A program made the position numbers and the translations under genes. Source: Sphacelaria rigidula (taxonomy: Eukaryota). Taken from it: 32,974 bases of DNA. This document shows, one piece after another, positions 1 to 31,234 of the stretch (its first letter is position 1; each line of letters opens with the position of its first letter). Under the pieces are notes generated by a model. It was not told where the DNA came from. It was given only the letters and a program-made list of their open reading frames with translations, and made no database searches. The stretch spans positions 1 through 32,974 of the forward strand of contig CAXNAA020000035.1 of NCBI GenBank assembly GCA_964200075.2. Reading direction: 5' to 3'.

Positions 1-66
1 TGCTCCGTCTCGAAAGGGATGCGTGGTCAATGGTCAAACGACTAAGGCAAGCAACAAATGAGTACG
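1..66 (+). mobile_element. 3' end of tail-less LINE-like element
   Basis: Near-identical to 8702-8767 and 4152-4213; ends GAGTACG followed by a C-run; absent at the equivalent position of the intact paralog (~12060). Confidence 0.75.
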
Positions 67-547
67 CCCCCCCCGTGTACGTGAATCTTGGTTTTTCACT
101 CCCTCAGCAAGAAGTCCGAGAGCAGGAGTGATCGTGAGGAAGATGAGCGGTGTCTCGAGTGTGCGAGAAGAGTACGGCGTACATGAGGAAAACGGGCAAA
201 ACGGTCTGTTGGCCATACTCTCAGGAAAGCTCGATTGCCGCCCGTTTGGCACGTGCGGCATCGACGTAAGTGTCGATCGGCACAAAATATGAGTGGTGTA
301 CCCAATTACACTTCTGCCCCATCGCGAACGTCGCCTACATCTTCCGCCCGACCAACGCAGGTACAGCTGATGGCGACGGGATATTGTATGGGGTGCTACA
401 GAGACTCTAACAGCGATCACCCAATGACGAATAGTTTGAACGCTGAAGACATGACCGCCACGGTAAGAGGGTGGACAAGTCGCCACGGTGCTTGCTCGCA
501 TTCTATGAAGTACTTTGTCATCGGCATATCGAGATACAGCTGTAACT

Positions 548-997
548 AACAAACAATTCTGTGACATGAATTTGTACGATGAAGTGAGGTTCAAGCCCAA
601 AACGGTGCTTTCCCCACACTTTTAACGATGGTGCCCGATGACGTTTTTGTCGGCCTAATCCCCTTCGATCGCGTAGATACGGTTTTAGCGCATTTTACCG
701 ACTCTGTGAGCTAGGTTACAGCGCTGACTGGAACCGACGTTTCCCCTCATATCATCCCCCCTTCCCGCCATATGGTCTAACGAATAAGGCAAGCAACAAC
801 TGAGTATGCCCCCCCCCCCCCTGGGCAGCACTGTAAGCTCACAGAGTTGGAAAAACACGCTGAAAAAGTATCTACGCGATCGAGGGACATTAGGCCGAAA
901 AAAAGTCATTGGGCACCATCGCTGCAATTGTGGGGAAAGCACTGTTTCGGGCTTGGATCTCATTTCATCGTACTACCTATTCTTGAGACTTGTCTGC
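548..997. mobile_element. Foldback MITE with long (~170 bp) imperfect terminal inverted repeats
   Basis: 565-712 is the imperfect reverse complement of 836-973; flanked by a TAACT direct repeat (543-547, 998-1002; a TA duplication is an alternative reading); empty site in the paralog near 12955; second copy at 21689-23287. Confidence 0.85.
772..808 (+). mobile_element. ~37-bp 3' stub of the tail-less LINE inside the MITE spacer
   Basis: atggtctaacgaataaggcaagcaacaactgagtatg matches the family 3' end; flanked by C-runs; absent from the second MITE copy. Confidence 0.7.
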
Positions 998-3391
998 TAA
1001 CTGCAGACTGCTGTGAGCAACCGACAGCAACGGCGTTCGACTGTCGTTCCCATCGCCGGCTACACTGTACATTTTTCACCCAGGCAGCATGATCCGCTCG
1101 TACAGCGCTGTCTTGTCGCGCTCAACTCACAAACCCTGAAGACTGTCGTCGACGATGATCGACCGCTACTGAAGAGTTACCTGTATCTTGGTGTGCGCCG
1201 GCCATTGCTCCGGTTATGCCTACTTTGCAACGCAGTACGGTATTTAGCTGTGAACGAAGCACCCGGCAGTGTGTACGTCGCCCCAACGGTGTCCTCATGC
1301 TGCCATACCGTCCAATGATGCCGTCTGATGTCCTTGTGATGTAGCAGGTGCGGAGTGAACGTAAATAGTAATTCAACTGAGAATCACTACGGCGCAATAG
1401 ATTTATTGAACGCCGGTGACAGCTGCGTCATGCTGGAGTCCGAACCTCTGATGCCCCTTCGCTCTCGTTGGTGCGGAGTCCAATATCGTAATCATCGCAG
1501 CTTGATCTCTCCGGCTTTCATCCCCCTTCCACGATGCGGTGCTTGTGTGGCTGAGCGGTATCGACTACTGCAGACATGGGACGGGTACTTGATGACATCA
1601 CGTGCGCAGGAGACTGTACCGATACGTGCGGTGGATGGTATGCCTTCGGTATGTACATGGCGCCCACTCCAGCACCGACCCCGATTCCCACCGCGGCTCC
1701 GACCAAATGCGCAGACTGTGGGTGATCCGAGGACACCAGGAACAACTGCATCATAAAAAACGTGTTGATCAACGACGGCTTGACGAATGAGGTCAGGTGC
1801 GTGTGCCGACTGATAGGACCTACGTAACATGACCGCCCTGCGTGGCTCGTGTCGTTGAGCAGGACGTGGAGCACTGGCTTGGATGAACGGGAGCTCTCAT
1901 AGATTCGCGTCGAAAGATTTGAGCATCGCCCTAACAACACGATTGGGATGAAACCACCCCAGCGCCTGAAAATTAGAGGTTCAACGGTTTGCACATCATC
2001 GCATACGAACATCCTCTATGTTTGCGTCCTCCTGCTCTCGTCGCCATAGGCATGCGTCGCCCAATCCCCCGGCCATTCCTACTTCGCCACGCAGAACGGG
2101 ACGGAGGTGAGGTCAACCCACCCCGACTCTAGTATTCGTGGGGATGGCGGTACTGGTTTTGTTCCTCTCGTGGACGCGCGTTCGCTGCGTTTGCTTCTGA
2201 GTCGACCCCTTTATGGTGTCACAGCGGCTTCGTAAAGCAACAGCTCGATGAGACACATACAGGTCCAACGCATTTCACAGCTTACAGAATTGTTCTCATA
2301 CGAAGGTGCACGTCGACGAAACCACCGTCGTCCTCGCTCCCTTTTGTTTACTATCAGCAGCAGGGAAAGGTCATCGTCAGCACCGGGTCCTCGTGCCGTT
2401 CCTGCTGCTCCATCGCGCGGACGAAATGTTGTGCGGAAGAAGACCGAACCCATTTCCGAACCTTCCTGATCGCTCACGGGAAGTCGCAATGTGGTCGCTC
2501 ACTCGCATGTTAGCGACGACCACGTCCTATATATGTCTACGGACACTCCTGCCGTTGCCTCGCGCCATCTTTCTTGTTGTCCGGGCGAACTCTAAATACT
2601 CCCTGCTTCGCTGCTCTGCATGAAATTGTTCAGCTGTTGCTTCCATGTCCATTCTACGATATGGTGCTGGTGTGGACTGGGCGGTATTGACTTTACGATA
2701 GGCACGTTCCGACCACGTGCGAATATTCATGCGCGGGGGATTCTTCGGAGACGTGCGGTGGATACTTTACAATGTTTTTGTGCCCTACCCCGACTCCGGA
2801 GCCGACGCCGGAGCCGACCCCGGAACTGGCCAACTGCGCAGACTGTGGGCGCTCCAAGGACACCAGGGACGACCGCGTCACAACCAACATGTTCACCGGC
2901 AACAGCATGACGAATGGGGTCAGCTGCCTGTGTCGACTGGCAGGACCTAGGTGACTTGTTCTCCCAGCGTGGCTCGTGCGGTTGGACAGTCGGTACTGGC
3001 CCGAATGAACGAGAGCTTTCATAGACTCGCGTCGGAAGATTTGTCATCACCCCAACAACACGACGGCCTTTGAGCCACCCCAGCGCCTGAAACTTGGAGC
3101 GCCGAATGTTTGCACATAATCGCAAATGACCATCCTCAATGTTTACATCTTCACGCCCTTCTCGCCACAGGCATGTGCCGCCCAATGCTCCGGCTATGCC
3201 TACTTCGGTACGCAGTACGGGACGGAGGTGAGGTCAAACCACCCAGACTCTAGTTTCCGCGGGAGTGGTAGCAGTGGTTTTGTTCCGCTCGTGCACCCGT
3301 GTTTGCTGCGTCCGCTCCTGGATCGACCCCTTAGTAGTGTCACGGCTGCTGCGTGAGGCAAGACGTCGATCAGACACACAGTTATACGAGC

Positions 3392-3728
3392 TGGGCCAGC
3401 CAAGGCTTTGTGGCAACAAATACAGACCACGCGCGGGTCGAGGTTTCGAATTGTTGGATGAAAGTTTGACCCCAGAGAAACAACACTCAGGTCCACCTCG
3501 TCACTCTCTTAACCTTTTGCTTTTTACTCTAACTCTGAGCTATTCCATTCTTCGGGATAGGTTTGGATGCCTTCAAGCGAGCGAGAGAAAAATGAAATTA
3601 TGTGCCAGAGGTGGGGCAGGGTGAGCCCGAGTGCGGTTTCTCTGGTGTCAAAAGTTTAGCCCAAAAATTGAAAAAAAATGAGCCACGCCTTGTCGCTTCA
3701 GTATTTTCGCATATGAGGAAAGTGCCCT
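3392..3728. mobile_element. Degenerate foldback/MITE-like insertion
   Basis: 3445-3505 is the imperfect reverse complement of 3608-3675 (ccagagaaac..cactc vs gagtg..gtttctctgg); starts where homology to the WSC intron stops. Confidence 0.5.
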
Positions 3729-4032
3729 GGAGCCATCGTACGATAGGGGGGGGGGGAATTTCAGGCCACTTCTTGCTAGATATTTCAAGCCAAATCGTCG
3801 CTGAAAGCAGCAACGGCTGTTTGAACGAGCTTGTTGGAGATATATAAAGCTCACCCATACCACTTGACACTGTTTTTTACCAAATATAAGCGCACCGCGA
3901 GTGTTGCAGGTCATATGACACGCCTTCGGGTTTCTTTTGTCGTGCAATCAAATATCTCCCCCCCTCCACCCACACCCTCCGGCCCCCCCCACCCCCCACC
4001 CCCGCCCCCCCCCCGCCCCCGCGCGCGCGGAG

Positions 4033-4042
4033 NNNNNNNNNN
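4033..4042. other. Assembly gap (10 N)
   Basis: Run of N next to a C-rich low-complexity tract. Confidence 1.
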
Positions 4043-4151
4043 TTTGCAGGCGGCGTTTCTCATCGTGACGCACCCCCGGGTTATGTCTGTTTGGTTAGCT
4101 GTACCCAATCCTCCCCCCCCCCCCCCCCCGCCTATCGTAGGGTTAGGGTTA

Positions 4152-4213
4152 CCGTCTCGAAAGGGATGCGTGGTCAATGGTCAAACGACTAAGGCAAGCA
4201 ACAAATGAGTACG
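4152..4213 (+). mobile_element. 62-bp 3' stub of the tail-less LINE with 11-13 bp target-site duplication
   Basis: Identical to 5-66; flanked by CCTATCGTAGG at 4131-4141 and 4214-4224; 10 extra nt GTTAGGGTTA at the 5' junction. Confidence 0.85.
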
Positions 4214-5473
4214 CCTATCGTAGGATGACTCCCCGGTGATCAATAGATCACACAGGTATTGTCAGGGTGAAGAGAACGTGGGTGAAATTCCCGCCAGACG
4301 CGCTCTTTGCCTTCGGGAAATAAATAAATATAATTTCTACCGTCAAAAGCGTGTTGACGTCACGAGAGATGAGTTGATCCCTTCAGACCAAGAACTCGAC
4401 GCGAGTAAGGGGAGGAGTTTAGAGTGTGACAAAAAATAGGTCCTACGCCGAAAGAGTGTGACGAAAACATGAAAATCGTGCGCAGATGATATTCTACGTT
4501 ACGTATAGCACGTGCCCAACTATTCGGGAGAGAGCACTAGCCGGCGATTCTGCCACACGTATGAGAGCTATGACGTAATGATGAAACGTGTCAGCGTCTA
4601 CGCAGCGTGAGGTTACCTGGTGGGTTGGTTATTCCCACATACACGACTCCCACACTCCCACCAGGGGCGTTGTAATCTCTGTACTACACGTAGCACTGCC
4701 TTGACTGCCACGATTCCTTTCGAAACATGTGTTGGAACCTCATCGTCACACCAAAGCTGTCGTAGTACATGAACAAATCGCCTGTACTATCCTGTTTTTT
4801 CCTTTCGTTTGTAACTCAGGCAATTATTTTGCGCAAAGTACGGCACCAGAAAGGCCCCGCAATGGCACTGTTCCGAAATATGGTGCGGTAGCCAAGGGAG
4901 TATTCCGCGTAGTACAGAAAGTACAACGTACCTGGTGGGAGCGTGGGACTAGTGTACGCGGATACCATTCACCCAGCGGGTAACAGAGTGATGCTACGGT
5001 AGAGGTGCACAAATATTTTCTGAGGTTGAAATTGTTAGGAGCCCTTTATCTCATCCGAAACACGGCTTCTGAAAATATGTGAGAGTAAACGCCAGGATTA
5101 CTTTTCAAATGTGCTGGGGATATCCCGAATAATTTTGCAAACGGGGGTGCCCTGACCCGTAATCTTGTGCACTGGAATCGTTAGGAGCCCCAGAGCCAGA
5201 CAAGATTTCGCGCAGAAAGCGCACCCCTACCGTAGCATTGCCCAACATCAAGCTGCGCAGACATCCAGGATATTTCATCGTTCCACCATGGCTATCATAC
5301 GTGGCAGAATCGCTGGGTCATTCTCCCTGTCGAATATTTGGGCATGTGCTGCACTTAATCGAGTGCATTATCCCTTTCCCGGGGACGAGTCTGTGATCTC
5401 AAGGGGTTAATTAAACTCTCCTGACGCCCCCACGCTTACGACGGGGGGAATCGTATTTCCCGAAGAAAAAAAC

Positions 5474-5547
5474 GCGCGTTCGGGGGGAATCGGACCCATG
5501 TTCGCTTGATCCTGACGGTGGCAGTCTGACCATTAGATCACGCACGG
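5474..5547 (-). other. tRNA-like sequence (pseudo-tRNA or SINE head)
   Basis: Minus strand has A-box-like TGATCTAATGG, B-box-like GGTCCGATTCC, a partial acceptor stem (ccgtgcg/cgaacgc) and a downstream T7 run; the anticodon arm does not pair. Confidence 0.45.
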
Positions 5548-5654
5548 GTGGCCACTGAGGTGCCTACAACCTCAAATTTGGACGTTACAGTCGTTGCACA
5601 AGGTCTGTAACGTCCAAATTTGAGGTTACAGGCACCCCAGTGGCCACCCGTGCG
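5541..5654. repeat. Near-perfect 50-bp inverted repeat (hairpin, 14-nt loop)
   Basis: 5541-5590 versus the reverse complement of 5605-5654: 47/50 matches. Confidence 0.95.
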
Positions 5655-5909
5655 GTTGCGCCTTGTACTTTACTCGGCATATTTTCGGCACACAAAAATT
5701 TCCTCAGTGCAAACAACATGAAGTACATTGAGAGCTGTCGGACTTCCGCGTGTCGATCCCCCGGTCCCAGGAATAAGTTTACTTTGCGATAAGTCCCCGT
5801 GGTTTTTGAGATATATTTGGTGGAAGGAATTCCAGTCTTGAGGCTGACGCAGCTCGCTGTGCACGTCACAGCTTATCACTCATGGGGCATGACGACGCAG
5901 GTGAGAGGC

Positions 5910-6290
5910 ACATTGCGTTCCAAGTCTTCTCATACGGAGGTAAACATCGGCGAAGTCGCCGTCGTCCTCGCTCCCTCCTGTTGACCAACAGCAGCAAGGA
6001 CAAAAAATGGTCAGCCCCAGGTCCTCGTGCCGGTCCTGCTGCTTCGTCGCACAGACGAACTGTTGTGTCAAACAAAAACAAACCCATTTCCGTACATTCA
6101 TGATCGCACACGGGAAGTCGTCGCGAAGCAATGTGGTCGCTCACTCGACATTAGCGACGACCATAGCCTGAGTATATCCACGGGGCACTCCCGCCATTTC
6201 TCACCATTGTTCTCTGTTGTGTTGTTGAACGCACCCTGCATGCGCCCTGCTTCGCTGCTCTGTACGCAACTATTAATTCTGCCGCTTACA
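5910..6290 (+). pseudogene. Displaced remainder of the pseudogene's last intron (intron-6 homolog)
   Basis: Aligns to 2270-2640 and 14525-14915 (ttctcatacg.aggt..ac.tcg.cg.a..c.ccgtcgtc...aacccatttccg...gctctg); separated from 3380 by ~2.5 kb of insertions; no following exon found. Confidence 0.8.
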
Positions 6291-6369
6291 CGTGTAGGCT
6301 TTGCCTTCACACACCAGCCCCTTTCTGGGGAGGGGCTATCGTAGAAAGACTCATAGGTGAGATGTACGT

Positions 6370-6918
6370 CACGAGTTTTCGAACGTGCTGAATCGTTCCC
6401 CTGACTTCTCCGAAAGTATGTAGCCTGTTTCGTCTTCATCTATGGGCTGAAGAAATGATGAAGCCTGCTCTCACATGTTTCGGAGGAAGTGGAACCCGTC
6501 CAAATATGTCGGAAATTTCGGGCGGAAACACAGTGGACTAGTTCAAAATACCCCTTAGCTATGAAGGTCGCCGCGTGCTTCCTGTTCCGGGCAATCGTGC
6601 TTTTCGTTTCGGTCGATTTCATCGCATGTGCGTCTGGTACCAAAGAATGATTTTGTCATATATGTGTATGTACACTTGTCAGTTGAGAAAAGGGGTCAGA
6701 ATAGGTAAAAAGGGGTCGAGATTTGTGAAAACGTGCTACGATGCGCTAGGTCTCAACGTCATTCGTTGTCCACTACAGCGAGGAATATCGCACGCGGTTC
6801 GCTTTTCTGTGCAGTTTACAGCCCACTGCATAGCACTGGGGACATAGAGTAACGGGGAAAGTGAGCCAGCTACAGAGAAAAAAAGAGTCGTAAGTATTAC
6901 GTTTTGACGCCGTGGTGA
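6370..6918. repeat. Dispersed ~550-bp repeat, copy 1
   Basis: Collinear with 31935-32481 with the same boundaries (cacgagttt...ttttgacgccgtggtga). Confidence 0.9.
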
Positions 6919-7944
6919 AGTTGGCGACCGGGAATCTGGGCAGGCGGTGCGACGCACAATACCCGTCGGCTGGTGCCTATTCACTGGCACCACCCGAATG
7001 CTCCGCGATTTCGGGAAACATCCCCAAACGCTCCCCACGTGGTCCTCAAACGAACGCAAGTGATCTCACAAGAATCGGTGATGCTATGCGATGGGGAAGT
7101 AAGAGCGTTCGGCAGTGGTGGCTAGGGATGCATGTTGGGCTGCTGACCACCCCACTTTAGCGACCCAACAGTGCTGCAGACCCGCAGACGGCCGACGTAT
7201 GACGCGAGACGTGTTGTTCTGAGCAGAGGACGGCCTTTGCTTGTGTGGGGCGCTGCTCTATCATGTACTACAGCACCATGCAGTACGCTACTATTTTATC
7301 ATAATGTGCGTGTTGCGCACGTAGTGTGCAAGACCTGTGCGCATATGACGTAGCAGATATACGCGTCGTGTACTATGCAGTACATTTCAGCTACAAGGTG
7401 TCGATTCAGTCCTCCGCTGGCCACGATATGTCTGCTTTAGCCCGTACACGAGCGATGTACCTCGTCGTGACCATCTGCATGCGCAACGGTAGTTTACGTC
7501 ATGCTATTCCAAGCGGCAAATATCAGTTGAATGTGACTGAGCGCTCGGTGCAGATCCTGGTGACGAGAAATCTCGGTTTTTGTTGACCTCGACTGTGTGT
7601 GTTGATTTGAATATTCGGAATATGGGAGGTGACAAAGCATTGTGGCTGAACAGAAGTACCACGGCAATCTCTTATCGTAGAAGACGCTTCTCGATCTAGC
7701 TCCCAGCGGACGTCTACAGAGACTGCTTGACTGCACTTCGACTGAATCCTCGATCGAATTATAGACTGCACCCGTACAGAACCTCTGCACCATAGAAACC
7801 TTTCTCAAGTCCGCTACTGTACCCCGTATCACCCGTGTACTGGGTTACGTTCCTCTTCTCGTTTCCCGTCATACTTCGAAATGATGATGTCATCGGGACG
7901 AGCCCGTAGTTTCAAGGGCTCATCCCATCTCCCCCCTGCTACCA

Positions 7945-8767
7945 GCAGAGAAAGAAAGAGAAACTTGTGATGGCAATATAGCGTCAGGAACATGCAGAGA
8001 AAGACATTGTCATCTATGGTTGATAAGGCTGTATGGGAGAAAGCTACGACAGGGCAGCTTGAATGAGGTGGGACAGAGAAGTCGAAAAAGTATGCAGGAG
8101 ATAGGGAAAAACCAAGACGAAATACTCTCCATAGGTAAATGCGCGGGGTGCAAGACAAACGTAAGAGACATGATAGAAATACGGGGGAAAGGAGCGCTCA
8201 GACTCGAAGTAGACGGGGAAGAAAACCTGAAGATATGCGGGGGGTTGAGAGAGGGGATAGGCATGAAAACATGTTTGCATGGCCCAATGGACGCGGCGAA
8301 AAATCTGAAACTACGATATCGGGTGGGGGACCTAGACCTGCCAGAAAGAAAGAAGACATTTACCAATAGTCGAGAGAACGAGGAAGTAGATGCACCGAAC
8401 TTCCCCTACGGTAAAGCAATAGAGAGCAGAACTCAAAGAGTGGCAGCATGTGTATTATACAATGAGGAACGGGACGTGCTAGAGTGGGAAATGTGGGACG
8501 TGAACGAAGGTGGCATGAAATCGTTTGATGCAGTAGACAGTAGCGAAAAAACGATGGCCATGGCGATACTAGGAGATAGATGGTGGCCACACACGACGAA
8601 ATACGAGGGGGATAAGATTATAAAAAGCTTTTGTGCAATATATGGAAGAAACGTAATGCGCACCTAAACGTCGGAGGTGTCTCTATGAGGAGTAGGAACG
8701 GTGCTCCGTCTCGAAAGGGATGGGTGGTGAATGGTCAAACGACTAAGGCAAGCAACCAATGAGTTCG
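7945..8767 (+). mobile_element. 5'-truncated LINE-like retroelement (C-terminal ORF2 remnant, ORF 8020-8667)
   Basis: 14-bp TSD with one mismatch (cccccctgctacca 7931-7944; ccccccttctacca 8768-8781). ORF has LKLRYRVG..L and a degenerate CCHC-like segment (NFPYG..ESRTQRVAAC..Y.EER) resembling post-RT LINE domains. Shared 3' end, no poly(A). Confidence 0.75.
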
Positions 8768-9985
8768 CCCCCCTTCTACCACCCCTTACAACGTATTACC
8801 GTGGACCGGATCAGCACTGGAACAGCCCGTCACCGTTGGTCAAGTGAATGTTTCATCCATTCACGCTCTAGCGTTTTCCAACACGGAAGCAAGCGAAGTA
8901 AATAATTCCCGCCGGGGTTCCAACTCACGACTTCGGCTCTCGTTTCATTTTTCACCCACGTAGCCCCAGGTTCATTTCCGCCTCAAGTTGCCGCTACAAA
9001 ACGGTGTACTCCGCGGCCCACGCAGACGGGCTGCTCTCTATCGACGGTATCATATGTTGACGGTGTGTACCAACAGGTGTTTCCCAACCTCATGCAGCAC
9101 ACTAAGTTGAGAAGCATTGACTGCAAGAGCCCCAGAAGCATATTTGCTAACGTAGCCATTGATGCCACGCTTGTGTTAAAGACATTGAACACTTTGCACG
9201 CACTTTCAGCACGAAGACGAGCAAATACGGCCCGTGCTGAAGAAAGTGGCCCAAGGAGATGTGATTGGGAGACCGATCGGACCAACCCGGGGGTATCTCA
9301 ACATACGCGAGGGCGTGAAAGTTAGTCATCAAGGGCATGCCTCGTAAACGCCATCAACGAAAAACATCGAAACTGGGCATGACGATAGAATACCGAAGCG
9401 AAATGCGAAGACGATCTTAGACCAGGACACTATGCAACACGCAAACCGGGTACGTCTTTCGTACGCAGCTCGCACTCTATCTGGGTTCCTTCCCCCTTCG
9501 GTCGCTTACCTCGATGAAAAGCTTTGTAATCCCGTAATCCGTTCGCCGAGTACCGGAATAAAAACAAACGATTAAAGTTCGAGACAGAAATGTCGAAATA
9601 CCCCGATTCTTACCGTGAGCTTAGGTCTGTTTATGTTGGGCGTAGCCGCCGATCGATGGAGAACAGTGTGCGAATGGCACACTGCGTGTGTTTCATTTCT
9701 CCGAAACCGTCCCAGCCCGAGACTGCAATTCCCTTTAACCGGTAAAACCGAGAACTCCGCTACGGCTGACGCGGGATTACGTTCACATAATCGGATGCGT
9801 ACTTGATCGTCCTATTCATACACGGGTGTGCACATGCCACTCCGGGGATGCACGCGGAACTCGTTGTGTGTGTGTGAGTGTGAGTGAGTGTGTGTTCCAT
9901 CAACACGCGACGCGCGCGACAGACGTCTCCAGGTCAGTTGAAGATGAACGGAGTTGTTCGTGGGCCTCATAGTGGACGTTAAGAC

Positions 9986-10647: not shown

Positions 10648-10711
10648 ATGAAGCTTGCCGGGTTCTTTCTCGGCGCCTTGGTCGTCTCGAGCTCGCTCGC
10701 AAGCTCATCCG
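10648..10711 (+). CDS. WSC gene exon 1 (signal peptide)
   Basis: ATG AAG CTT... encodes MKLAGFFLGALVVSSSLASSS; donor G|GTGAGT at 10712, phase 1. Confidence 0.75.
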
Positions 10712-13700
10712 GTGAGTGGGCGCACGGTCCAGCAGGAAATGGCGAGGTCAAAGAGACGAGCATCGACGATCGCGTTCATCATGTCCCGAGAATGCGCCGT
10801 CAAATGTGCCTGCGGTGTCTCACCACCCTGTTTTACTTCGCCCCAGTCGCCGTTGCCACCTGCTGCAGGTCATTGTGTAGTTCTGACTGTGGCTGCAGTA
10901 CTCTGGCGTCGGTCCGCGAACCCGAATTCTGCTTATGATCGAAGTACGAATCACTGATCCAACGCCCACGAGACTAGACTGCTGTACGCACAGCATGACA
11001 TCGCCATAGGACGCCCTTGTGTGAGAGTGGGCTTGCGAGACGTCCGTGCAGCTGATTCCTCAATATCAGAATAAATCCTTCACCGTAGCGTCGGGCACGG
11101 TGCTATGGCTATCTTTGTTTTACTTTGGCGTACAGAGAAGAAGTAAACCCACCGTGACCACAAGCTGGAGTACTGGAGTTGCTAAACACAACCCGGTCTT
11201 CACCGTTGGAATCTGACAAAGAGCGGCAAGCGTTGAGCACCGTGGATAGACATTGTGATTGACTTCGAAGAGATCTTGGTACTACAATCACTGGAAAGAA
11301 CAAGGTCGACCTCGAGGCGTGATCAAACGTAACGAGATATGCTACAATTTTCGCTCACCGGGCATTTTCACACTATCTTCATGTGGGCCGAGCCCCAGCA
11401 CGCTTTGCGTCCAGAACATTTGCAAAACGTTGAGTTCCAACATTTCGTGCATAGAGCGAGAGGGGTTCACGCGATATTGCCGTCGGAAGCCTATCGTTCA
11501 CACGTCCTAGCTTCTGTTGAACCGTAGCCGTAGCCCCGACGGACGCCAACCGGACACCCTTCGCCAAAGACAGCCGTAAGCAACGTATGCACCCTCAGAG
11601 CTCGAAGCGGGTAGTACGGCATTAGTTCGGGCACCAATAGGTGCGGCACACGCCGTGAAGTACGGGGTGTCGACCTCTCGTCCTCCTGTTGGAGATCTCA
11701 CTCCAAGTATGTACATGAAAGTTGTATATGCTTCGACCGTGTGGCTTTGACCACGAAGTCGCGTGAGCTCACTGCAACAGGCAAAGCGTGGTGTAGTTCA
11801 CCCCTCCTCGCTGACTGGAGGCATCGAGAAATCGGACGAGACGTGCGTTGCCCACGACTAATGATGATGGAATCCCCAGTCGGGTCCAAAGTCACGGTAG
11901 TAATGACATGAGGGCTCGGCACAAGATGATGGTGCGCTAGGTTGTGCGTGTCATATTGAACGTATATGTGTTGTCACTGTCTGTCCGTTGCGTGCCGTGG
12001 TGATTAAAAAAGCCTAGCACACAATACCTTTTGGTAATGGTTCGTGGTGCACACTCCTCTCGCCGCCCCTTGTGCGTGAATCCTGTCTTTTCCACCCCTG
12101 CAGCCGGAAGACTGAGAGCGGGAGCGACCGTGACGGAGGTGAGCGATATCTCGAGTGTGCGAGACGAGTACGGCGTACACGACAAACACTGGCAAAACGG
12201 TCTGTCGACAATGCTCTCAGTGCTGCTCGATTGCTGCCCGTTTGGTACGGGCGGCATCAACGCAAGTGTCGATCGGCAAAGCCCATCAAATGTATGAGCG
12301 GTGTACCCAGCTGCACTCCCACCCACTCGGGAGAGTCATCCTGCGGTGGAGATTGCACATTCGGGCCCAAATCTTCCTCATTCGAAGGCTCCTCAAGTCG
12401 GGGGCTGCGCAAGAATAAGGGTCAGGATATTCCCTTTTTTCAAGCCCGTTCGGGATATCCCCGCCCAGTGGAATGCTAATGGTGGCGTGCTCTCAAATAT
12501 TCCGTGAGCAATGCCACGGTAGGGGTGCCTTTTTTGCTTCTCGAGGCTCTGTGCTGCTGGAGCCTCTCGACGATAAATATCTGGGCCTTAGTGTGCAGCC
12601 TCAGACACGTTTCGGCCCAAACCGTGCACCCCTACCGTGGAATTACACCCATCAGTCGTTTCCTGGATGTGGTGGAGGGATCGTAATAATTCGAACCTCA
12701 CAAAATATGAGCGCACCCTCAACGTAGAAACGCTCGCGAATGTCAACCACATCTCCCGACCAACCAACGCAGGTACAGCTCATGGCGACAGGATCCTCTA
12801 CGGGGTGCTACAGGGACTCTAACAGTGACCGCGTGATGACGAACAGGTTGACCGCTGAAGATATGACCGCCGCGGTAAGAGGGTGGACAAGTGACCATGG
12901 TGCTTGCTTGCGTTCTGTGAAGTACATCGTCATCGGCATATCGAGATGCAGCTGTAGCTCCAGATTGCTACGAGCAACCGACAAGAACGGCGTTCGACTG
13001 TCGTTCCCGTCGCCGGCTACACTGTACATTTTTCACCCAAGTAGCATGATCCGCTCGTACAGAGCGCTCAACTCACAAACCCCGAAGACCGTCGTCGACG
13101 ATTATCGACCGCTACTGAATAGCTACCTGTATCTCCCCCCCCGCAGGTGTGCGCCGCCCACTGCTCCGGCTATGCCTACTTCGCAACGCAGTACGGCAAT
13201 GAGGTGAGAACGAAACATCCGGTAGTCTGTACGTCGCCCCAGTGGGTGTCCTCATGCTGCCGCCGTGCGATGATCCGATCTAACGCCTCCTCGTGTAGCC
13301 GGTGCGGCGTGACCGCAGGTGAAACACTCCACTGAAGAACGACTGCGGCGCAATCGATACATTAAACGTCGCCGGCGACAGCTGCGTCATGCTCGGATCC
13401 TAACCGCCGATGCCTCGTCGCTCTCGTTGGTGCGGAGTGCGATATTCTATAACCATCGCAGCCTAATCTTTCCGTATGAAGAAATTCCGCTACCGCTTGC
13501 ATTCCACTTCCACGATACAGTGCTGGTGTGGGCTGAGCGGTATCGACTACGACAGGCATGGGCCGGGTACTTGTGATATGGCATGCGCAGGAGACTCTAC
13601 CGAGACGTGCGGTGGATGGTATGCCTTCAGCATGTACACGACGCCCACTCCAGCACCGACCCCGGCGCCGACCCCGGCCCCGACCCAGTACGCAGGCTGT

Positions 13701-15957
13701 GGATGCTTCAAGGACACCTGGGACGACCGCGTCATGACCAACATGTTGACCAGCAACGACATGACGAATGAGGTCAGACGCGTGCGCCGACTGGCAGGGC
13801 CTACGTGACTCTCTCGCCCCACACGACTCGTGTGGTAGGACAGGCCGTGGTGCCCTGGCCCGGATGAACGAGAGCTCCCATAGACTCGCGTCGAGGACAC
13901 TTTCTACGACAGGCCCTCCCAAAACGTGGCTGATTTGGGGAGGGAAAATTTACACGTAAATCGAACTGAAAAAAGCGAAGCCCACCGAGCATCTGGGAGT
14001 TTCCACGCTTTGCTTTATGTCCGCCGATGTCGCCTGTATGAGGCGCTTCATGCAGGCTGTAGCTAAACATCAGTCGCTTTATAACCATTTTCTCCGCGAC
14101 AGTTCCTCGTTGGTTTTGGGCGGAGGCTATCGTAGAAAGTGTCCAAAATACCTTGACATCACCCCAACGACGGTATGGCGTTCGAGTCGCTTCAGCTCCT
14201 GACTGTCAGAGGTTCGAACGTAGGCACACCATTGCGCACCGCCACCCTAATCGTGCATGTCGTTCCGCTCTCCTCGCCACAGGCATGCGCCGCGCACTGC
14301 TCCGGCTACGCCTACTTCGCCACGCAGTACGGGAGGGAGGTGAGAGATCAACCCGCCCTGACCCTAGTCTCGTAGGAATGGTAGCAGTGGTTTTTTTCCG
14401 CTCGTGCACGCGGGTTCGCTGCGTTTGCTTCTGGATCGACCCCTTGGTGGCGTCACGGCTGCTGCGTAGGGCAACCACTCGATGAGATGCACGCTGTTCC
14501 AGCTCTCATCACCGCCCAATACGCAATGCATTCGAGCTCTTCTCATACGAAGGTGCACGTCGGCGTAACCGCCGTCGTCATCGTTCCCTTTCGTGCCCCA
14601 ACAGCAGCAGGGACAGAGCGAGTAATCAGCACCAGGTCGTCGTGCCGTTCTTGCGGCTTCGTCGCGCGGACGGAATGATGTCCATGAAAACAAAAACGAA
14701 CCCATTTCCGTACCTGCATGGTCGCCCACGGTGAGGTGTCGTAGAGCGATGCGGTGGCTCATGCGCACGTTGGCAACCGCCACGTCCTAGACATGTCCAC
14801 GGGGTACTCCCGCCTTCGTCGTCTTGGCGCCTTTCTCCGTTCCTTCTCGAGCGCGTTCTAGATGCTTCCTGCCTCACTGCTCTGTACGCAATCGTTGTGC
14901 TGTCGCTTCCGCGCTAATTCTACAATGCAGTGCTGGTGCGGACCGGGCGGTATCGACTACGCTAGGCACGGCGCTGCAACGTGCGACTACCCTTGCGCTG
15001 GAGATTCTTCGGAGACGTGCGGCGGATTCTTTGCGATGTCATTGTGCGCCACCCCGACCCCGGAGCCGACCCCGGCGCCGACCCCGGCGCCCACTGCGTA
15101 CCCACCGACTCTCGGATGCTTCAAGGATAGGAGGGACGACCGCGTGATGACCAAGATAGCCTCGAGCGGCAGAATGACTCCTGCGGTGAGGAACTATTTG
15201 TGCTTGCTAGCAGCTCGCGGATGTTAGTGTGCGGAGGTTACGTGAGAAGCGACGACTCGACATTCCCGCGATAGCGGCGTTTGTCCCCCTCTCCTTTTGT
15301 TCGCAGACGGCCTGAAGGCCGGAAAGCGTGATCGACAGCGTTGCACCCGTGTCGTGACCCCGAAGTTCCGATTCGTGCCGCTAGCAACCTTACAGACCCC
15401 CGCATGCGGCCAATCCCACCTGTTGCTCGCCCGCTTGCTCGCCACAGGTTTGCTATGCGTACTGTTCATCAGCCACCGTCAATTATCGCTACTTCGCAAC
15501 ACAGTACGGAAGCGAGGTGAGCAGAACAAGTTTGTCCTCGCAATGTGGGAGTACTATGCTCTGTACTGTCAGCACAACCCGCGAGATATTCCTGTGATGC
15601 ATGGGCTTGAACACGCTTAGTAACCGTACAGAAACCCCTGCTGCCACACGCTCATTCCTACAACGCCTCTTCTGACGTTTCGCGTCTCCCTACTTCGCTC
15701 ATCTGCGCGCGCCTTCTGCGTACCGCTTCCACGCCCGTTCTGCCATACAGTGCTGGTGCGGGGAGGCCGGCATCGACTACGCCAGGCACGGCTCCGGTAA
15801 TTGTGATATCGATTGCAGGGGAGATGCGTCGATGAAGTGTGGTGGTACTTTCGCCTTCAACCTGTTCTCGTTCCCCGCCACACCGGCGCCCACTCCGGTG
15901 CCCACCCCTGCGCCGACCCTGACACCCACGTCCGCACCTACCTCGGCCCCCGTTTAA
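10648..15957 (+). CDS. Secreted triple-WSC-domain protein with Pro/Thr-rich (AGP/mucin-like) linkers; 9 exons, 365 aa
   Basis: Hand-spliced exons 10648-10711, 12104-12138, 12773-12874, 13147-13203, 13521-13772, 14283-14339, 14931-15185, 15448-15516, 15751-15957 total 1098 nt, open from ATG to TAA, all introns GT..AG. N-terminal hydrophobic signal MKLAGFFLGALVVSSSLA. Three copies of the WSC pattern GC(Y/F)xD..RVM..MT..C..C..Y.YFATQYG.ECWCG....C...C.GD....CGG, separated by PTPAPTPAPT linkers. No TM or GPI-like tail seen. The exon 1-2 link is the least certain part. Confidence 0.9.
11371..11934. mobile_element. Possible MITE in intron 1
   Basis: cactatcttcatgtgggccgagccc (11371) versus gggctcggcacaagatgatggtg (to 11934) form imperfect ~25-bp inverted ends. 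Confidence 0.35.
12104..12138 (+). CDS. WSC gene exon 2 (35-nt micro-exon, AGRLRAGATVTE)
   Basis: Pyrimidine tract and CTGCAG acceptor, GAG|GTGAGC donor; converts phase 1 to phase 0 as required; homologous segment in the paralog at 108-142. Confidence 0.7.
12330..12732. mobile_element. ~400-bp insertion in intron 2 (MITE-like)
   Basis: Absent from the paralog intron (~330); flanked by a CTCG direct repeat; begins GAGAGTCATCCT like the element end at 32826. Confidence 0.65.
12773..12874 (+). CDS. WSC gene exon 3 (N-terminal part of WSC1)
   Basis: VQLMATGSSTGCYRDSNSDRVMTNRLTAEDMTAA; CAG acceptor, GTAAGA donor; an alternative in-frame acceptor 6 nt downstream is possible. Confidence 0.85.
13147..13203 (+). 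CDS. WSC gene exon 4
   Basis: VCAAHCSGYAYFATQYGNE; CCGCAG / GTGAGA. Confidence 0.9.
13521..13772 (+). CDS. WSC gene exon 5 (end of WSC1, linker, start of WSC2)
   Basis: CWCGLSGIDY...CGGWYAFSMYTTPTPAPTPAPT...GCFKDTWDDRVMTNMLTSNDMTNE; TACAG / GTCAGA. Confidence 0.9.
13895..14144. mobile_element. 250-bp MITE in intron 5
   Basis: ~31-bp TIRs ggacactttctacgacaggccctcccaaaac / gttttgggcggaggctatcgtagaaagtgtcc; absent from both homologous introns of the pseudogene; related copy at 17611-17854. Confidence 0.85.
14283..14339 (+). CDS. WSC gene exon 6
   Basis: ACAAHCSGYAYFATQYGRE; CACAG / GTGAGA. Confidence 0.9.
14931..15185 (+). CDS. WSC gene exon 7 (end of WSC2, linker, start of WSC3)
   Basis: CWCGPGGIDYARHGAATCDYPCAGDSSETCGG...GCFKDRRDDRVMTKIASSGRMTPA; TGCAG / GTGAGG. 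Confidence 0.9.
15448..15516 (+). CDS. WSC gene exon 8
   Basis: VCYAYCSSATVNYRYFATQYGSE; CACAG / GTGAGC. Confidence 0.9.
15751..15957 (+). CDS. WSC gene exon 9 (end of WSC3, Pro/Thr tail, stop)
   Basis: CWCGEAGIDYARHGSGNCDIDCRGDASMKCGGTFAFNLFSFPATPAPTPVPTPAPTLTPTSAPTSAPV*; TACAG acceptor. Confidence 0.9.
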   Translation, partial: CWCGEAGIDYARHGSGNCDIDCRGDASMKCGGTFAFNLFSFPATPAPTPVPTPAPTLTPTSAPTSAPV

Positions 15958-17610: not shown

Positions 17611-17854
17611 TGATGCAGCGATAGCCCCCTCCAGGAAAGTGGCTGATTTGAGGAGGCAAAATCTACACGTAAACCGAGGTGACGAAAAACAGAGCACACC
17701 GAGCAGCTGCGAATCCCCAGGTTTGTGATTGTTTGTGCCAATATCGCCCGTATCAGGCGCTTTATGCAGTCGGAAACCATCGACCATGCGCTCTACGACC
17801 ATTTCCTTCGTGACAGGTTTAGGATTGGTTCGGAGGGGGGCTATCGCGCCATCA
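17611..17854. mobile_element. MITE related to 13895-14144
   Basis: TIRs tgatgcagcgatagccccctcc / ggaggggggctatcgcgccatca; internal homology (gtggctgatttg..tacacgtaaa..caccgagca..aggcgctt.atgcag..accattt). Confidence 0.75.
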
Positions 17855-21688: not shown

Positions 21689-23287
21689 CAGACAATTCTA
21701 TGAATGAGGTTGTGCGATTAAATGAGATTCAGGCCCGAAGCAGTGCTTTCTCCACGCTTTTCGCGATGATTCCCGATGATATTTTCGTCGGCCTAGTGCC
21801 CCTCGATTGCGTAAATACTTTTTCAGCGCATTTTACCGACTCTGTGAGCTTACAGCGCCGACCGAAACCGTCATTTTCCTCGATGTCACCCCCAGCCCTC
21901 CCCCTTCAATAATCAGAGAAAATGGCGGTTTCGGTCACCGCTGTAACTACAAAGAGTCGGAGAAATACGCTGAGAGAGAGCACCCACGCGACCGAGGGGT
22001 ACTAGACCGACAAATAACTCATCGGGCCCCATCGCTGCAAGTGTGGCGAACGCACTGTTTTTGGCTTGAACCTCATTTTGGTGTGCAGCCTTCATCGAAA
22101 TCAACCGCCGTCTCAGCGCGGCGTGGGCGCGTATCCGAAAATATAGCCGCCAACTCTACGACCGACCCAACGCCGAGCTATCCTTGAAAGTTCGACCGCT
22201 TAAAGCGGAGGTGGTGGAAGCTCTGTTGCATGGGTGTGCCACATGGACGCTACGTTCTGAGAACTTCGAGGGTCTGCGCACTGCTCATCACAAGCTCTTG
22301 CTGCGAGTGATTGGATTCCGCACGAACGATCGAACTGGTTACAAGACTCTTTCGTACAGAGGGGTGCACGAGATGATCAACTGCGAATGGATCGAGACGA
22401 CTATCCGCAAACGTCAGCTCTGGTTCGCCGCAGTCCTTGTCCGGCAGAAGGACACCCGCCTTTCCAAGCGTGTCATGAACGGTGGGCTTTCCACACGAGG
22501 ACCCCGAGGAGGTCGGCCGCCCCCCCAAGCAATGGGAGGATACCTTGAAGAAGACCCTACGTGCGCTAGGGGCTGTCCCGCACAAAGAAGCCCGACGAAA
22601 GTGGTTCGTCTACGGTGTAGAGGTTAACGATGCATATACGATTGGGTCACTGCGGCGAATGACCTGGGCAAATGGCATATTGGAGTCGGAAAGGGAGCGG
22701 AACTTGAGGACACGTGGCGACGTGCGGACAAGCGAGAATCAGACCGCCGTCAAAAGCGAGAGGATGCTGCGTCGAGGGCTGCCAATCGGAGAATCCTGTC
22801 TGCTGATATCGGTTGTTGATCATGTCCTTAGTCAGTGGCTCTGCGGTGCCCACTCGTGTGTGTCTGTATCTACTCTGCTTCCCTGAATCCCTTTTGGGCC
22901 TTTTCCTTTTCCCCCCTTTTCCCCCTTTTTTTTCTCCTTTCTTTCCTCCTTTTTTTTCCATCGTTTCATTGTATTTTTTTATTTCGCTCTGCACTTTTTT
23001 ATTTTTTCCTTTTTTTTGTTTTAGGTTGGCCATTTCTTTCTGTGCTTTGCTTGCGTTGACTTTCTGCTTACCTGTTTTTTCTTACGACTTAGTCTGCTAT
23101 GTCGTTCTGTTCGACCCCCCCTCCCCCCCCTTTTTCTGTCCCTTCTTTTACTCAGAGCGCGTTTCAGTTTCGCTTTTCTTGGGTACGTCTATCATGAGAC
23201 CACGGCTGGACTCGTGGGGGATCAGTCAAAGTGCGACAGTAAAAAAAATCAAAATAAAAAATCAGCCTCAATTTATGGAATTGTCTG
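21689..23287. mobile_element. Second copy of the foldback MITE, right arm split by a LINE
   Basis: Begins CAGACAATTC and ends GAATTGTCTG; arms homologous to 548-997; right arm is 21915-22091 plus 23263-23287. Confidence 0.85.
22092..23262 (+). mobile_element. 5'-truncated RTE-like LINE (RT C-terminal remnant, frameshifted)
   Basis: Translation IEINRRLSAAWARIRK...LKVR.LKAEVVEALLHGCATWTL....HHKLLLRVIG...IRKRQLWFA....R.KDTRLSKRVM.G...GRPPKQWED is typical of the RTE-clade post-RT region; pyrimidine-rich 3' UTR; A-rich tail; CAGCCT TSD at 22086-22091 and 23263-23268. Confidence 0.88.
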
Positions 23288-23941
23288 CTGTAGGGTGTAT
23301 CACGAGAGCACGCTGAGGCTATGTTCATGGGCAGTGCTGTGGCAGCGGAAAGGTGTCACTGCTCCGTCCTTCGGAAGGGCAGAAAAATGTCTATCTTTTC
23401 TGTGCAGGAGGCTTGGGTTGGTAGCACGTATGTGTAGGTACCTAGCCCGTGAGGTCGTAACGGTTCAGAAAAAGCAAGTGACATACAGTAAGGCACAGCA
23501 TGATGTGGTGGTACCAACGTGTGCAACTCAGGCGGAAGCTCGTGGCCTCGATCGAGGTTGCTCAAACCGCGGTTTGCACGACGGCGGTCGGAGGCTGTGG
23601 TGGTGTGCGGTCCAACACGATAGTGCAGAAACGAACAGCACGTATCCGCACGTAGCACAGCAGTTGAGTTCGATGGGTAAACCGTTCATCGTAGGCAATG
23701 GACAAAAGTCAAACCTACTTCACGCAGAAACAACAGCGGGCAACAGCCGTATTCTACAGCGGGTGAAAGGCGCGTTACGACTGTACCACTCTGTATTGCA
23801 ACAACAAGCAGGGAGCGGCAAACAGAGGGAGCGGGGCTATACCACAGCAGTCACGGGAGTACGACAACGCAGGCTATGTGGAAAATCCATCTAGCAACCG
23901 GGAAGGACACGGGTCGGTGTCGACGCCAATGCCAAGGGGTA

Positions 23942-24382
23942 TGTCATGGCTCGATACTCTAGCTGGGAATGGTGCCAGTTCAGTGGGCACCAGGCTAGCG
24001 GTTCAAGCACAATCATTAGTATCGAATCCATTGAGCTCGATTTGCTAGGTGGGGAGTCAACCCACACACCAATGACCAGGCGCCATGCCCATGGTTCGCC
24101 GGAGACAAGACCCATATAATGCGTGCGATGCGGGCTTACATTTGTGAAGACCGAAGACTCCTCTGAGATAGCAGTCCGTGATAGTGCTGATGCTTCTTGT
24201 ATTATTGGCAACCGGCTGGTAGTTGCTATTCGCGCGTTGAGATACGTTCCCAAAAGACTGTGCCCAAGTAGGGGGCACTGTCGAAATCAATCAGACTCAG
24301 AATGGCCCGTGACCTGTCGGGCTAGACAACGCAAGGGTATGACACATGGAATCTACTCGACTTAACCGATAAATCCGGAACG
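23942..24382 (-). repeat. 3' LTR (441 bp)
   Basis: Direct repeat of 30788-31234. Confidence 0.92.
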
Positions 24383-27076: not shown

Positions 27077-27384
27077 GCAGTCACCTTGCATGGTACGCTA
27101 GACATGAAGGGCAAAAAGATAGAGCAGGGCGACTAAGTCTGCGTACTGCATAAGTAATGACAAGACATTGCACGAACATATTTGGCAGTCACCTTGCATG
27201 GTACGCTAGACATGAAGGGCAAAAAGATAAAGCAGGGCCACTAAGTCTGCGTACTGCATAAGTAATGACAAGATATTGCACGAAAATATTTGGCAGTCAC
27301 CTTGCATGGTACGCTAGACATGAAGGGCAAAAAGATAAAGCAGGGCAACTACGTACGTCTGCGTACTGCATAAGTAATGACAAG
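27077..27384. repeat. 108-bp tandem repeat, ~2.8 copies
   Basis: gcagtcaccttgcatggtacgctagacatg at 27077, 27185 and 27293. Confidence 0.95.
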
Positions 27385-28707: not shown

Positions 28708-28839
28708 CCAGCAGCAGCAACAACAACATACAACAACAACAGCAGCAGCAACAGTCGTAATAGGTAACAGCAACAACAGAAAGCAGAAAACAACAACAGC
28801 AGCAGGAACAACAACATACAACAGCAGCAGCAACAACAT

Positions 28840-28919
<80 letters not shown>

Positions 28920-28927
28920 AACAACAT

Positions 28928-28966
<39 letters not shown>

Positions 28967-29007
28967 GCAGCAGGAACAACAACATACAACAGCAGCAGCA
29001 ACAACAT

Positions 29008-29043
<36 letters not shown>

Positions 29044-29055
29044 TACAATAACAAC
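28708..29055. repeat. Compound (CAA)n/(CAG)n microsatellite
   Basis: Direct reading; recurrent CATA and CAG interruptions. Confidence 0.97.
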
Positions 29056-29225
29056 ACGGCTTCACAGCTTCCGCAGCTGTCTGGAGCCTGATGTCCCGAA
29101 ACGCCCCGACGTAATTGTTGTCGAGAAGGACCGGCCCTCAAAAGTTGGTTATCAAAGGGTTGTCATCAATCCAAGCAACCGCAGTCATGAACAGTACGGG
29201 CAGCAGCAGCTTCAAAACGAATTTT

Positions 29226-30165: not shown

Positions 30166-30787
30166 GCGGCTGTACAGCTTCCGGAGCTGTCTGGAACTTG
30201 ATGTCCCAAAACACCCCGACGTAGTTGTAGGCCCTCTGGTTCGTTGACTCGTGCGATCTCATTCGACCTTTATGCCTTCGTCAATTGTTTTGTCTAGGTT
30301 ATTTCACTTTCGCTTTGAACGTCTGCCGTGGCGTGCTGATGAACCATCCTTGATGAGCTCGTGCATAAAGCCGTTGGTGGCGCTCTGCTTGGGTTGTATG
30401 TAACGCAGTGCAAATGCGGCGGGCAACAACGCAATACCACAAACAGACAGGACGACAAAGCCTACCTAGTCCATGCTTACTTTTTACTGTTCCGCGTAAT
30501 TGTAGTTCAAGCATATCCTGGTGCAGTTGTTTTTGCTATTGAAAACAATGAGTGCACGCAACTGTGAAGCAGCGCGGTTGTGTTGTTTCGTACTCGTGAA
30601 AAGAAGAGCGTCTGTAGCTATGTGGATTTTCTCCCATGTGTGCAACGCACACTATTTACCATATATAAGTCTAGTGACACGACAAGATGAAATCTCAAAC
30701 CTCCCCACAAAAACATTTTACGGACGCGCATGCTACGCCTTTGGGGGTCATGCCGGAGTTGACCTACACACGCACGGATGGACACCA

Positions 30788-31234
30788 TGTCATGGCTCGA
30801 TACTCTAGCTGGGAATGGTGCCAGATCAGTGGGCACCAGGCTAGCGGTTCAAGCACAATCATTAGTATCGAATCCATTGAGCTCGATGTGCTAGGTGGGG
30901 AGTCAACCCACACACCAATGACCAGGCGCTATGCCCATGGTTCGCCGGAGACAAGACCCATATAATGCGTGCGATGCGGGCTTACATTTGTGAAGACCAA
31001 AGACTCCTCTGAGATAGCAGTCCGTGATAGTGTCGATGCTTCTTGTATTATTGGCAACCGGCTGGTAGTTGCTATTCGCGCGTTGAGATAAGTTCCCAAA
31101 AGACTGTGCCCGAGTAGGGGGCACTGTCGAAATCAATCAGACTCAGAATGGCCCGTGACCTGTCGGGCTAGACAACGCAAGGGTATGACACATGGAATCT
31201 ACTCGACTGGACCATAACCGATGAATCCGGAACA
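30788..31234 (-). repeat. 5' LTR (447 bp)
   Basis: Direct repeat of 23942-24382; TG...CA termini. Confidence 0.92.

What the first reader, a model, noticed from the sequence alone, without database searches (positions are those of the whole stretch)
1540..3227. WSC domain number changes by recombination inside the Pro/Thr linker repeats, producing a chimeric exon
Seen: the pseudogene exon 2665-2918 has a 5' half matching exon 7 of the intact gene (..GDSSETCGG.F.M.LC.TPTPEP) and a 3' half plus downstream intron matching exon 5 (..CG..KDT.DDRV.TNM.T.N.MTN|GTCAG). The switch lies in the 12-bp ccgaccccgg(a/c)g linker repeats (~2787-2826). The result is a 1121-bp tandem unit (57-nt exons at 2050 and 3171) holding exactly one WSC2 domain with its two introns. 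Inference: the linker minisatellite acts as an unequal-crossover site that adds or removes whole domains in frame, an 'accordion' route to variable-valency glycan-binding proteins. This differs from the intron-mediated exon shuffling described for Ectocarpus ROCO-LRR and NB-ARC-TPR genes.
Basis: partly seen in the sequence, partly recalled or inferred. Interest (0 to 1): 0.75.

Follow-up and report, generated by a model that had tools for sequence, protein, structure and literature searches.

The report
Hybrid exon from whole-domain duplication
A brown-seaweed gene for a probably secreted, sugar-binding protein gained one whole binding domain by a DNA exchange inside the spacer between domains, which left a hybrid exon; this is a known kind of event, but read data hint that the working gene also carries a hidden extra copy whose number may differ between samples.

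Summary
Exon 2665-2918 of a broken gene copy is exon-7-like up to 2801 and exon-5-like from about 2829. The switch interval matches a 23-base tract in the Pro/Thr linker, the longest exact match between the two units of the intact gene. The 1121-base unit holds one WSC domain and two introns. Single contigs of two runs bridge the junction. Two additions: an intact hybrid exon of the same type exists in another assembly (P0001), and in 3 of 4 runs the matching stretch of the intact gene has about twice the flanking contig depth, one contig stopping exactly at the end of the 23-base tract. That hints at a collapsed extra unit; I could not see its sequence. In 6 of 7 other brown-algal repeat groups an edge lies in a linker, but also in linkers without Pro/Thr repeats, and one paralog that has these repeats ends at a splice donor. 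So linker-bounded domain gain is supported; a special minisatellite hotspot is not shown. Homology plus selection for whole domains suffices. Known mechanism, new case.

The parts
104..146 (+). pseudogene exon 2 remnant (approximate edges); exon 1 of this copy is not in the contig
361..462 (+). pseudogene exon 3 (N-terminal part of WSC1)
1191..1247 (+). pseudogene exon 4, both splice sites lost, stop at its end
1540..1791 (+). pseudogene exon 5: acceptor lost, compensating 1-base indels, two stops; exon-5 type in both halves
1681..2801 (+). first copy (U1) of the 1121-base unit: exon-5 3' half, intron 5, exon 6, intron 6, exon-7 5' half = one WSC domain; edges uncertain by about 26 bases
2050..2106 (+). 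57-base exon 6, first copy
2665..2918 (+). hybrid exon (exon-7 5' half, linker, exon-5 3' half); broken
2802..2827 (+). switch interval, inside the 12-base Pro/Thr repeat at 2790-2824
2828..3378 (+). second copy (U2), first part: exon-5 3' half, intron 5, exon 6 (3171-3227), start of intron 6
3379..5910 (.). about 2.5 kb inserted in the second intron 6; holds high-copy repeats and a 10-N gap at 4033-4042
5911..6269 (+). rest of the second intron 6; no exon 7 follows
10648..15957 (+). intact paralog as assembled; exons 10648-10711, 12104-12138, 12773-12874, 13147-13203, 13521-13772, 14283-14339, 14931-15185, 15448-15516, 15751-15957; hydrophobic N-terminus (by eye), three WSC-type domains, Pro/Thr tail; exons 3-9 all phase 0
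   Evidence: exons predicted from splice sites and homology, no RNA
13656..13678 (+). 23-base tract in the exon-5 linker, identical to 15066-15088
15066..15088 (+). 23-base tract in the exon-7 linker; a contig of run X5 stops at 15088
14207..15154 (+). stretch of the intact gene with about doubled contig depth in 3 of 4 runs: possible collapsed extra unit
13894..14145 (.). repeat element with 15-base inverted ends in intron 5 of the intact gene, absent from both pseudogene units and from contigs of all 4 runs that skip it

Best explanation
An ancestor of this WSC gene gained one whole domain by a homology-driven unequal exchange between the linker of exon 7 on one DNA copy and the linker of exon 5 on another. 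Introns cut each WSC domain in three, and introns of different units are unrelated, so such exchanges can only happen in exons; the linker offers the longest exact match, and an exchange there keeps every domain whole and the frame intact. The product is an array: exon 5, then [exon 6 + hybrid exon] n times, then exon 6 and exon 7. The broken copy froze n=1. The working gene probably has n of 1 or more in many molecules, with units kept nearly identical and collapsed to n=0 in this assembly. Linker edges are common in WSC arrays because of homology plus selection for whole disulfide-bonded domains; the 12-base repeat helps but is neither needed nor always used. Shown: hybrid exon, unit, switch interval, intact hybrid exon elsewhere. 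Inferred: unequal crossing over as the route, extra unit in the live gene, secretion, glycan binding.
For: Half-exon identities, shuffles and trees. Longest exact match between units is 23 bases in the linker, next 15 and 14. Introns of different units align only at 0.54-0.63 globally, with no local hit. P0001, an open frame from another assembly, not encoded in G000: upstream 12/28 to intron 6 vs 5/28 to intron 4; 5' half 31/40 to exon 7 vs 27/40; 3' half 20/29 to exon 5 vs 11/29; contig depth over 14207-15154 is 1.75/1.73 (X1), 2.06/2.23 (X3), 2.49/2.09 (X5) and 1.09/1.56 (X4) times the left/right flank; the X5 contig (130.3) stops at 15088 and depth at 15106 is 67.8; the X1 and X3 contigs lack 3 bases at 15106-15112, the exon-5 length. 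Intron distances are nearly star-like (U1-U2 0.235, U1-intact 0.259, U2-intact 0.256; 723 columns), as expected if the units were near-identical when the copy died. 6 of 7 other brown-algal repeat groups have a placeable edge in a linker.
Against: Only one junction lies in the window. The tool warns that contig depth is no copy number, and the letters of the doubled contigs were not shown; X1 and X4 contigs stop at 15154, not 15088, which a simple hybrid does not explain. X4 shows little excess and no 3-base gap. The test of domain-wise against exon-wise similarity was not significant (36 pairs from 14 genes: rho 0.26, p 0.125, against -0.06, p 0.72), some N-halves were cut short by the pattern, and the 4 of 14 genes that favoured the exon are all in the window's own subfamily. 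L003 ends at a splice donor. No RNA support for any exon.
Confidence: 0.68

Rival explanations
1. The 12-base Pro/Thr minisatellite is a true hotspot: it raises the exchange rate and repeatedly makes the same hybrid exon, so the pseudogene, P0001 and the live gene reflect separate events.
For: The switch lies in the longest exact match; an X5 contig stops at its last base; near-identical units in the live gene could be a fresh event.
Against: One old event inherited by all three explains the same data (distances). L003 has the same repeats and ends elsewhere. Edges in acidic or Ser/Thr linkers (P0058, P0080, P0039). In the P0029/P0170 group only one parent linker is Pro/Thr-rich.
Confidence: 0.17
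2. The duplication was a one-off in the dying copy, and the read signal in the intact gene comes from alleles, a short conversion patch from exon 5 into exon 7, or a separate close paralog missing from the assembly.
For: U1 and U2 are slightly closer to each other (90 sites against 73 and 75). The runs hold mixed haplotypes and the intron-5 element may simply be polymorphic. Contig ends at 15154.
Against: An intact hybrid exon with both splice sites exists in another assembly. Alleles do not double depth. No second close copy is in G000.
Confidence: 0.11
3. The hybrid look comes from gene conversion or rate differences in a plain exon-wise duplication, or from an assembly join.
For: A few exon-5-type sites lie in the 5' half (5 of 24) and exon-7-type sites in the 3' half (3 of 21).
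Against: Both flanking introns switch with the exon halves over hundreds of bases; the junction is bridged by single contigs in 2 of 4 runs; the unit copies differ by about 24%, unlike an assembly echo.
Confidence: 0.04

Closest known systems
Domain gain and loss by unequal crossing over inside an exon in spider Hc1a-type two-domain peptides (PMC13172734; passages read)
   Same: Exonic exchange at a short tract of high identity (25 bases there, 23 here) changes the number of cysteine-rich domains and is linked to avidity.
   Different: There both domains lie in one exon and the product is a fused domain; here the unit carries two introns and a whole short exon, and the junction lies between domains.
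Ectocarpus ROCO-LRR and NB-ARC-TPR exon shuffling (PMC3341825, abstract and sections 15, 17, 27; PMC11378527, passages)
   Same: Brown-algal genes with variable repeat number between close paralogs, by intra- and intergenic recombination.
   Different: One repeat per exon there; here a domain spans three exons and the unit is out of register with them. No reversed or intronic spare exons were looked for or seen. Their genome screen kept successive in-phase exons of identical length, so alternating 252/57-base units would not have passed it (my inference).
WSC3 of Serendipita indica (as described in PMC7816849, passages)
   Same: Protein built of three WSC domains; binds long beta-1,3-glucan and not short oligomers, which fits a valency effect.
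   Different: Fungal; no ligand is known for the algal protein and no orthology was tested.
Expanded WSC orthogroups of brown algae (bioRxiv 10.1101/2024.02.19.579948, passage); WSC proteins among cell-wall proteins (PMC8307928, passage)
   Same: Same domain family and lineage.
   Different: These passages deal with gene number, not domain number or junction position; Table S3 was not seen.
Intragenic repeat variation in yeast flocculin genes, and the old proposal that Pro/Thr linker DNA of bacterial glycanases serves domain shuffling (both recalled; one search did not return the latter)
   Same: Coding repeats as exchange sites that change surface-protein length or module number.
   Different: Intronless genes; recalled only, not checked here.

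Membership tests
WSC domain (Pfam PF01822) | Match to the profile above the curated cut-off over the whole domain | tested here: inconclusive
   Single exons match only profile 50-82 and score 13.7-23.1 bits, under 27.8. The spliced paralog P0008 (locus L003) scores 60.2 over profile 2-82, across three exons. The window's own spliced protein was not scanned.
WSC domain (Pfam PF01822) | Up to eight conserved cysteines per domain (PMC12879055) | tested here: met
   The spliced frame shows the cysteine pattern in all three domains, seven in the conserved positions shared with paralogs.
WSC lectins (WSC3-like) | Binds long-chain glucan | not testable with these tools
   No assay.
Intragenic duplication by unequal crossing over | Direct tandem copies with a hybrid junction | tested here: met
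Intragenic duplication by unequal crossing over | Junction in a tract of identity between the parent units | tested here: met
   2802-2827 corresponds to the 23-base tract 13656/15066; judged from today's intact gene, not the ancestor.
Intragenic duplication by unequal crossing over | Reciprocal products or variable copy number among individuals | tested here: inconclusive
   Depth ratios 1.1-2.5 in 4 runs; the tool says depth is no copy number.
One-repeat-per-exon shuffling (ROCO-LRR, NB-ARC-TPR) | Each repeat encoded by one exon of fixed length | tested here: not met
   Each domain spans three exons.
One-repeat-per-exon shuffling (ROCO-LRR, NB-ARC-TPR) | Spare repeat exons in introns, also on the opposite strand | not tested
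   Both strands were scanned but strands with fewer than two hits were not printed.
Minisatellite recombination hotspot | Excess of independent junctions in the repeat over what homology and selection predict | tested here: inconclusive
   One junction here, one counter-case (L003), linker edges without such repeats.

The most novel reading that the evidence does not exclude
The working gene holds a hidden, homogenised array of linker-to-linker WSC units whose number differs among living seaweeds, with both ends pinned to the 23-base linker tract and the hybrid exon kept functional across lineages: a running accordion for lectin valency that short-read assemblies and exon-length screens both miss, and that may be widespread in brown-algal WSC genes.
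Probability: 0.3. Interest if true: 0.62.

Novelty: new member of a known kind. Interest (0 to 1): 0.42.

Why it matters
The mechanism is textbook, but the case is clean and testable. A dead copy preserves the junction, and the live gene may still vary. If so, WSC domain counts from short-read brown-algal assemblies are underestimates, and the published view that repeat shuffling in Ectocarpus is nearly confined to LRR and TPR genes rests on a screen blind to multi-exon units. Comparing junctions in dead and live copies would separate mutation bias from selection for whole domains, and 3- against 4-domain proteins would test whether valency changes wall or pathogen glucan binding.

Tried and rejected
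Expression: no RNA holder listed; nothing can be said. Pseudogene cover is near zero in X5 and low in X4; contigs show presence, not absence, so this is only a hint of presence/absence variation. No second near-identical copy of exon 5, of 14150-15460 or of exon 1 in G000, so the suspected extra unit could not be read from the assembly. No upstream continuation of the L003 array found (only 40 of 1620 candidates scored, mostly a repeat). P0001 has no relative in the JGI metagenome contigs (0 of 104 pattern matches confirmed), so its DNA and organism are unknown. Half-exon trees resolve few deep forks (3 of 23 and 4 of 20 branches starred); a by-eye idea that exons 5 and 7 are themselves old hybrids relative to the five-domain paralog L001 stays untested. 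The domain-versus-exon correlation was not significant. The first profile for N-halves found almost nothing and was replaced by patterns. Tract edges in proteins that coincide with gene-model faults (P0024 both, P0026 left, P0058 and P0110 right) or sequence ends were not counted. Assembly artefact rejected. Earlier scan findings: none on this genome or topic. No structure was predicted. Literature: searches found no paper on junctions or domain-number change in brown-algal WSC genes; most subscription papers and the preprint's supplements were out of reach and may bear on this.

Full report
Setting. The window is contig C35 of a 244-Mb assembly. Proteins that a source names Sphacelaria rigidula match fetched paralog loci in sequence and contig length, so the genome is very likely of that brown alga (inference). 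The window holds an intact gene at 10648-15957 and a broken copy at 1-6269. Nine predicted exons of the intact gene splice to one open frame of 365 residues: a hydrophobic start (by eye), three WSC-type domains and Pro/Thr linkers. Two phase-0 introns cut each domain, so every long exon carries the end of one domain, a linker and the start of the next. A spliced paralog confirms that a full Pfam WSC match spans three exons (P0008, 60.2 bits); single exons stay under the cut-off. A protein search with exon 5 gave 136 matches among 150 scored candidates in the genome. No RNA supports the exons.

The observation. Exon 2665-2918 is exon-7-like in its 5' part (96/120 vs 84/120) and exon-5-like in its 3' part (75/92 vs 62/88), while the pseudogene's own exon 5 is exon-5-like throughout. 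The split was matched by 10 of 20000 shuffles of 59 sites; that split fell at 2842/2845, where an indel blurs the alignment. With the 45 sites at which both exon-5 copies agree, the counts are 19:5 up to 2801 and 3:18 from 2828. Trees place the halves apart: 100/97 with exon 7, 89/85 with the exon-5 copies. The flanking introns switch as well. The uninformative interval 2802-2827 corresponds to a 23-base tract shared by the linkers of exons 5 and 7, the longest exact match between the two units; the next are 15 and 14 bases. The unit is 1121 bases. Single contigs of X1 and X3 bridge the junction. The copy is dead: lost acceptors, stops, a 2-base insertion in the hybrid exon, a 2.5-kb insertion, no exons 7-9.

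Age. Over 723 intron columns U1-U2 differ by 0.235, U1-intact by 0.259 and U2-intact by 0.256 (sites 90, 73, 75); the unduplicated intron 4 is 229/289 identical. The two units were thus near-identical about when the copy split off. Either the unit was duplicated then, or it was older and kept homogeneous until the copy died.

The hybrid exon is not confined to the dead copy. P0001, from a 580-base ENA contig, is an open frame with intron-6-like sequence upstream (12/28 vs 5/28), an exon-7-like 5' half (31/40 vs 27/40; 7 of 9 deciding residues), an exon-5-like 3' half (20/29 vs 11/29) and read-through residues consistent with intact splice sites. It is not encoded in G000; its organism is unknown.

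Hint of a hidden unit in the live gene. In one search the contig depth over 14207-15154 is 211.8, 529.5, 15.6/13.7 and about 131 in X1, X3, X4, X5, against flanks of 121-123, 238-257, 9-13 and 52-62: ratios about 1.7, 2.1-2.2, 1.1-1.6 and 2.1-2.5. The X5 contig stops at 15088, the last base of the 23-base tract, and depth at 15106 is 67.8. The X1 and X3 contigs lack three bases at 15106-15112, the length difference between exons 5 and 7, and the X1 contig has 16 other letters; a switch to exon-5 sequence would give about 13. All 4 runs have contigs that skip the intron-5 element, as both pseudogene units do. The pseudogene, at 73-76% identity, cannot cause this at a 90% threshold. I rate a collapsed tandem unit as more likely than not, but unproven.

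Is the linker special? I fetched 40 loci chosen from the matches. One other shows a recent duplication with intron homology: L003, identical over its first 208 bases, 95% to 395, 84% around the short exon, and unrelated after the donor. It has the same linker repeats, yet its edge is inside a domain. Older blocks in L018 and the L008/L009/L013/L014/L015 family look domain-wise. The formal test was not significant (36 pairs, 14 of 18 genes examined gave pairs; rho 0.26, p 0.125 vs -0.06, p 0.72); the best pair favoured the domain in 10 of 14 genes (one a tie, five from one family) and the exon in 4, all of the window's subfamily. Among 170 proteins, 35 had a high-identity repeat tract; 10 of these, plus P0045, are named brown-algal by a source (most others were not looked up). 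By eye they form 7 groups; 6 have a placeable edge in a linker (P0029/P0170/P0024; P0026; P0036; P0045; P0058/P0080/P0110; P0039) and 1 is L003. P0036 and P0045 belong to one wider family. Ectocarpus relatives show 2, 3, 3 and 5 WSC stretches (P0007, P0029, P0170, P0024). Their introns were not seen as DNA; skipped or read-through segments in the gene models fall at the same two positions. Linker edges also occur with acidic or Ser/Thr linkers and in a diplonemid and a Phaeothamnion protein. So linker-bounded gain is the rule, but the Pro/Thr repeat is neither needed nor always used, and live genes cannot separate mutation bias from selection.

How it most likely works. Misaligned units pair in exons, the only homology they share; exchange in the linker joins the 5' half of exon 7 to the 3' half of exon 5, adds one whole domain with two introns, and keeps the frame. 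Once two units exist, more than a kilobase of homology allows further exchange anywhere in the unit, which homogenises it and changes its number while the array ends stay put. The anatomy is shown; the route, the live array, secretion and glycan binding are inferred. The fungal three-domain lectin WSC3 binds long but not short beta-1,3-glucan (PMC7816849), which makes a valency effect plausible, not shown.

What is known. Exonic unequal crossing over at a 25-base tract changes domain number in spider peptides (PMC13172734, passages). In Ectocarpus ROCO and TPR genes each repeat is one exon, the mechanism was not investigated in depth, and the screen kept only successive in-phase exons of equal length (PMC3341825, sections 15, 17, 27; PMC11378527, passages). 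WSC families expanded in brown algae (bioRxiv 10.1101/2024.02.19.579948, passage). Nine searches found nothing on junctions in brown-algal WSC genes; subscription papers and that preprint's supplements were not seen.

Verdict. Observation confirmed; interpretation partly supported; a new, well-resolved case of a known mechanism, with a testable lead that the live gene is a collapsed variable array. Interest 0.42.

Noticed in passing
window 900-3956 and 5628-6690: The pseudogene stretch has contig depth about 26-28 in X1 and X3, under 1 in X5 and 0.6-5 in X4, far below the intact gene; between 6400 and 9860 the commonest contigs differ from the window by a few percent. The window may carry a minority haplotype with the dead copy.
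   Followed up: partly
L003:1-1908 (G000:C12873): Paralog whose contig begins inside a unit identical to the next one over 208 bases; probably another collapsed WSC array. Its orthologous exon P0012 occurs in another assembly.
   Followed up: partly
window 13894-14145, 17627-17816, about 6320-6350: Short repeat element with inverted ends in intron 5; a related copy at 17627; a similar end lies where the pseudogene breaks off.
   Followed up: partly
G000:C5540:1432-1636 (-): 74% match to intron 1 of the intact gene; may hold the missing 5' end of the pseudogene.
   Followed up: no
L001, L002, L005, L006, L012: In one domain of these paralogs the intron before the 57-base exon is absent; other families lack the second intron or have introns at domain borders (L032-L036), and L016 has a long uninterrupted frame. 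Intron positions in WSC arrays vary.
   Followed up: no
L002:4366 exon (minus strand): Its start resembles the previous exon type and its end its own type: a possible conversion edge inside a domain half.
   Followed up: no
L026, L027, L037, L038; L023, L024: Recent whole-gene duplicates of WSC genes at 74-93% identity with unchanged domain number.
   Followed up: no
window 7888-8773, 4152-4215, 1-72, 22070-22627: High-copy retroelement-like fragments; very high read depth at 3984-4497 and 8096-9123.
   Followed up: no
window 23941-24381 / 30787-31233; 6370-6922 / 31935-32485; 27077-27384; 28718-29056: A 96.6% direct repeat of 447 bases, an 88% repeat of 553 bases, a 108-base tandem repeat and a long CAA run.
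   Followed up: no
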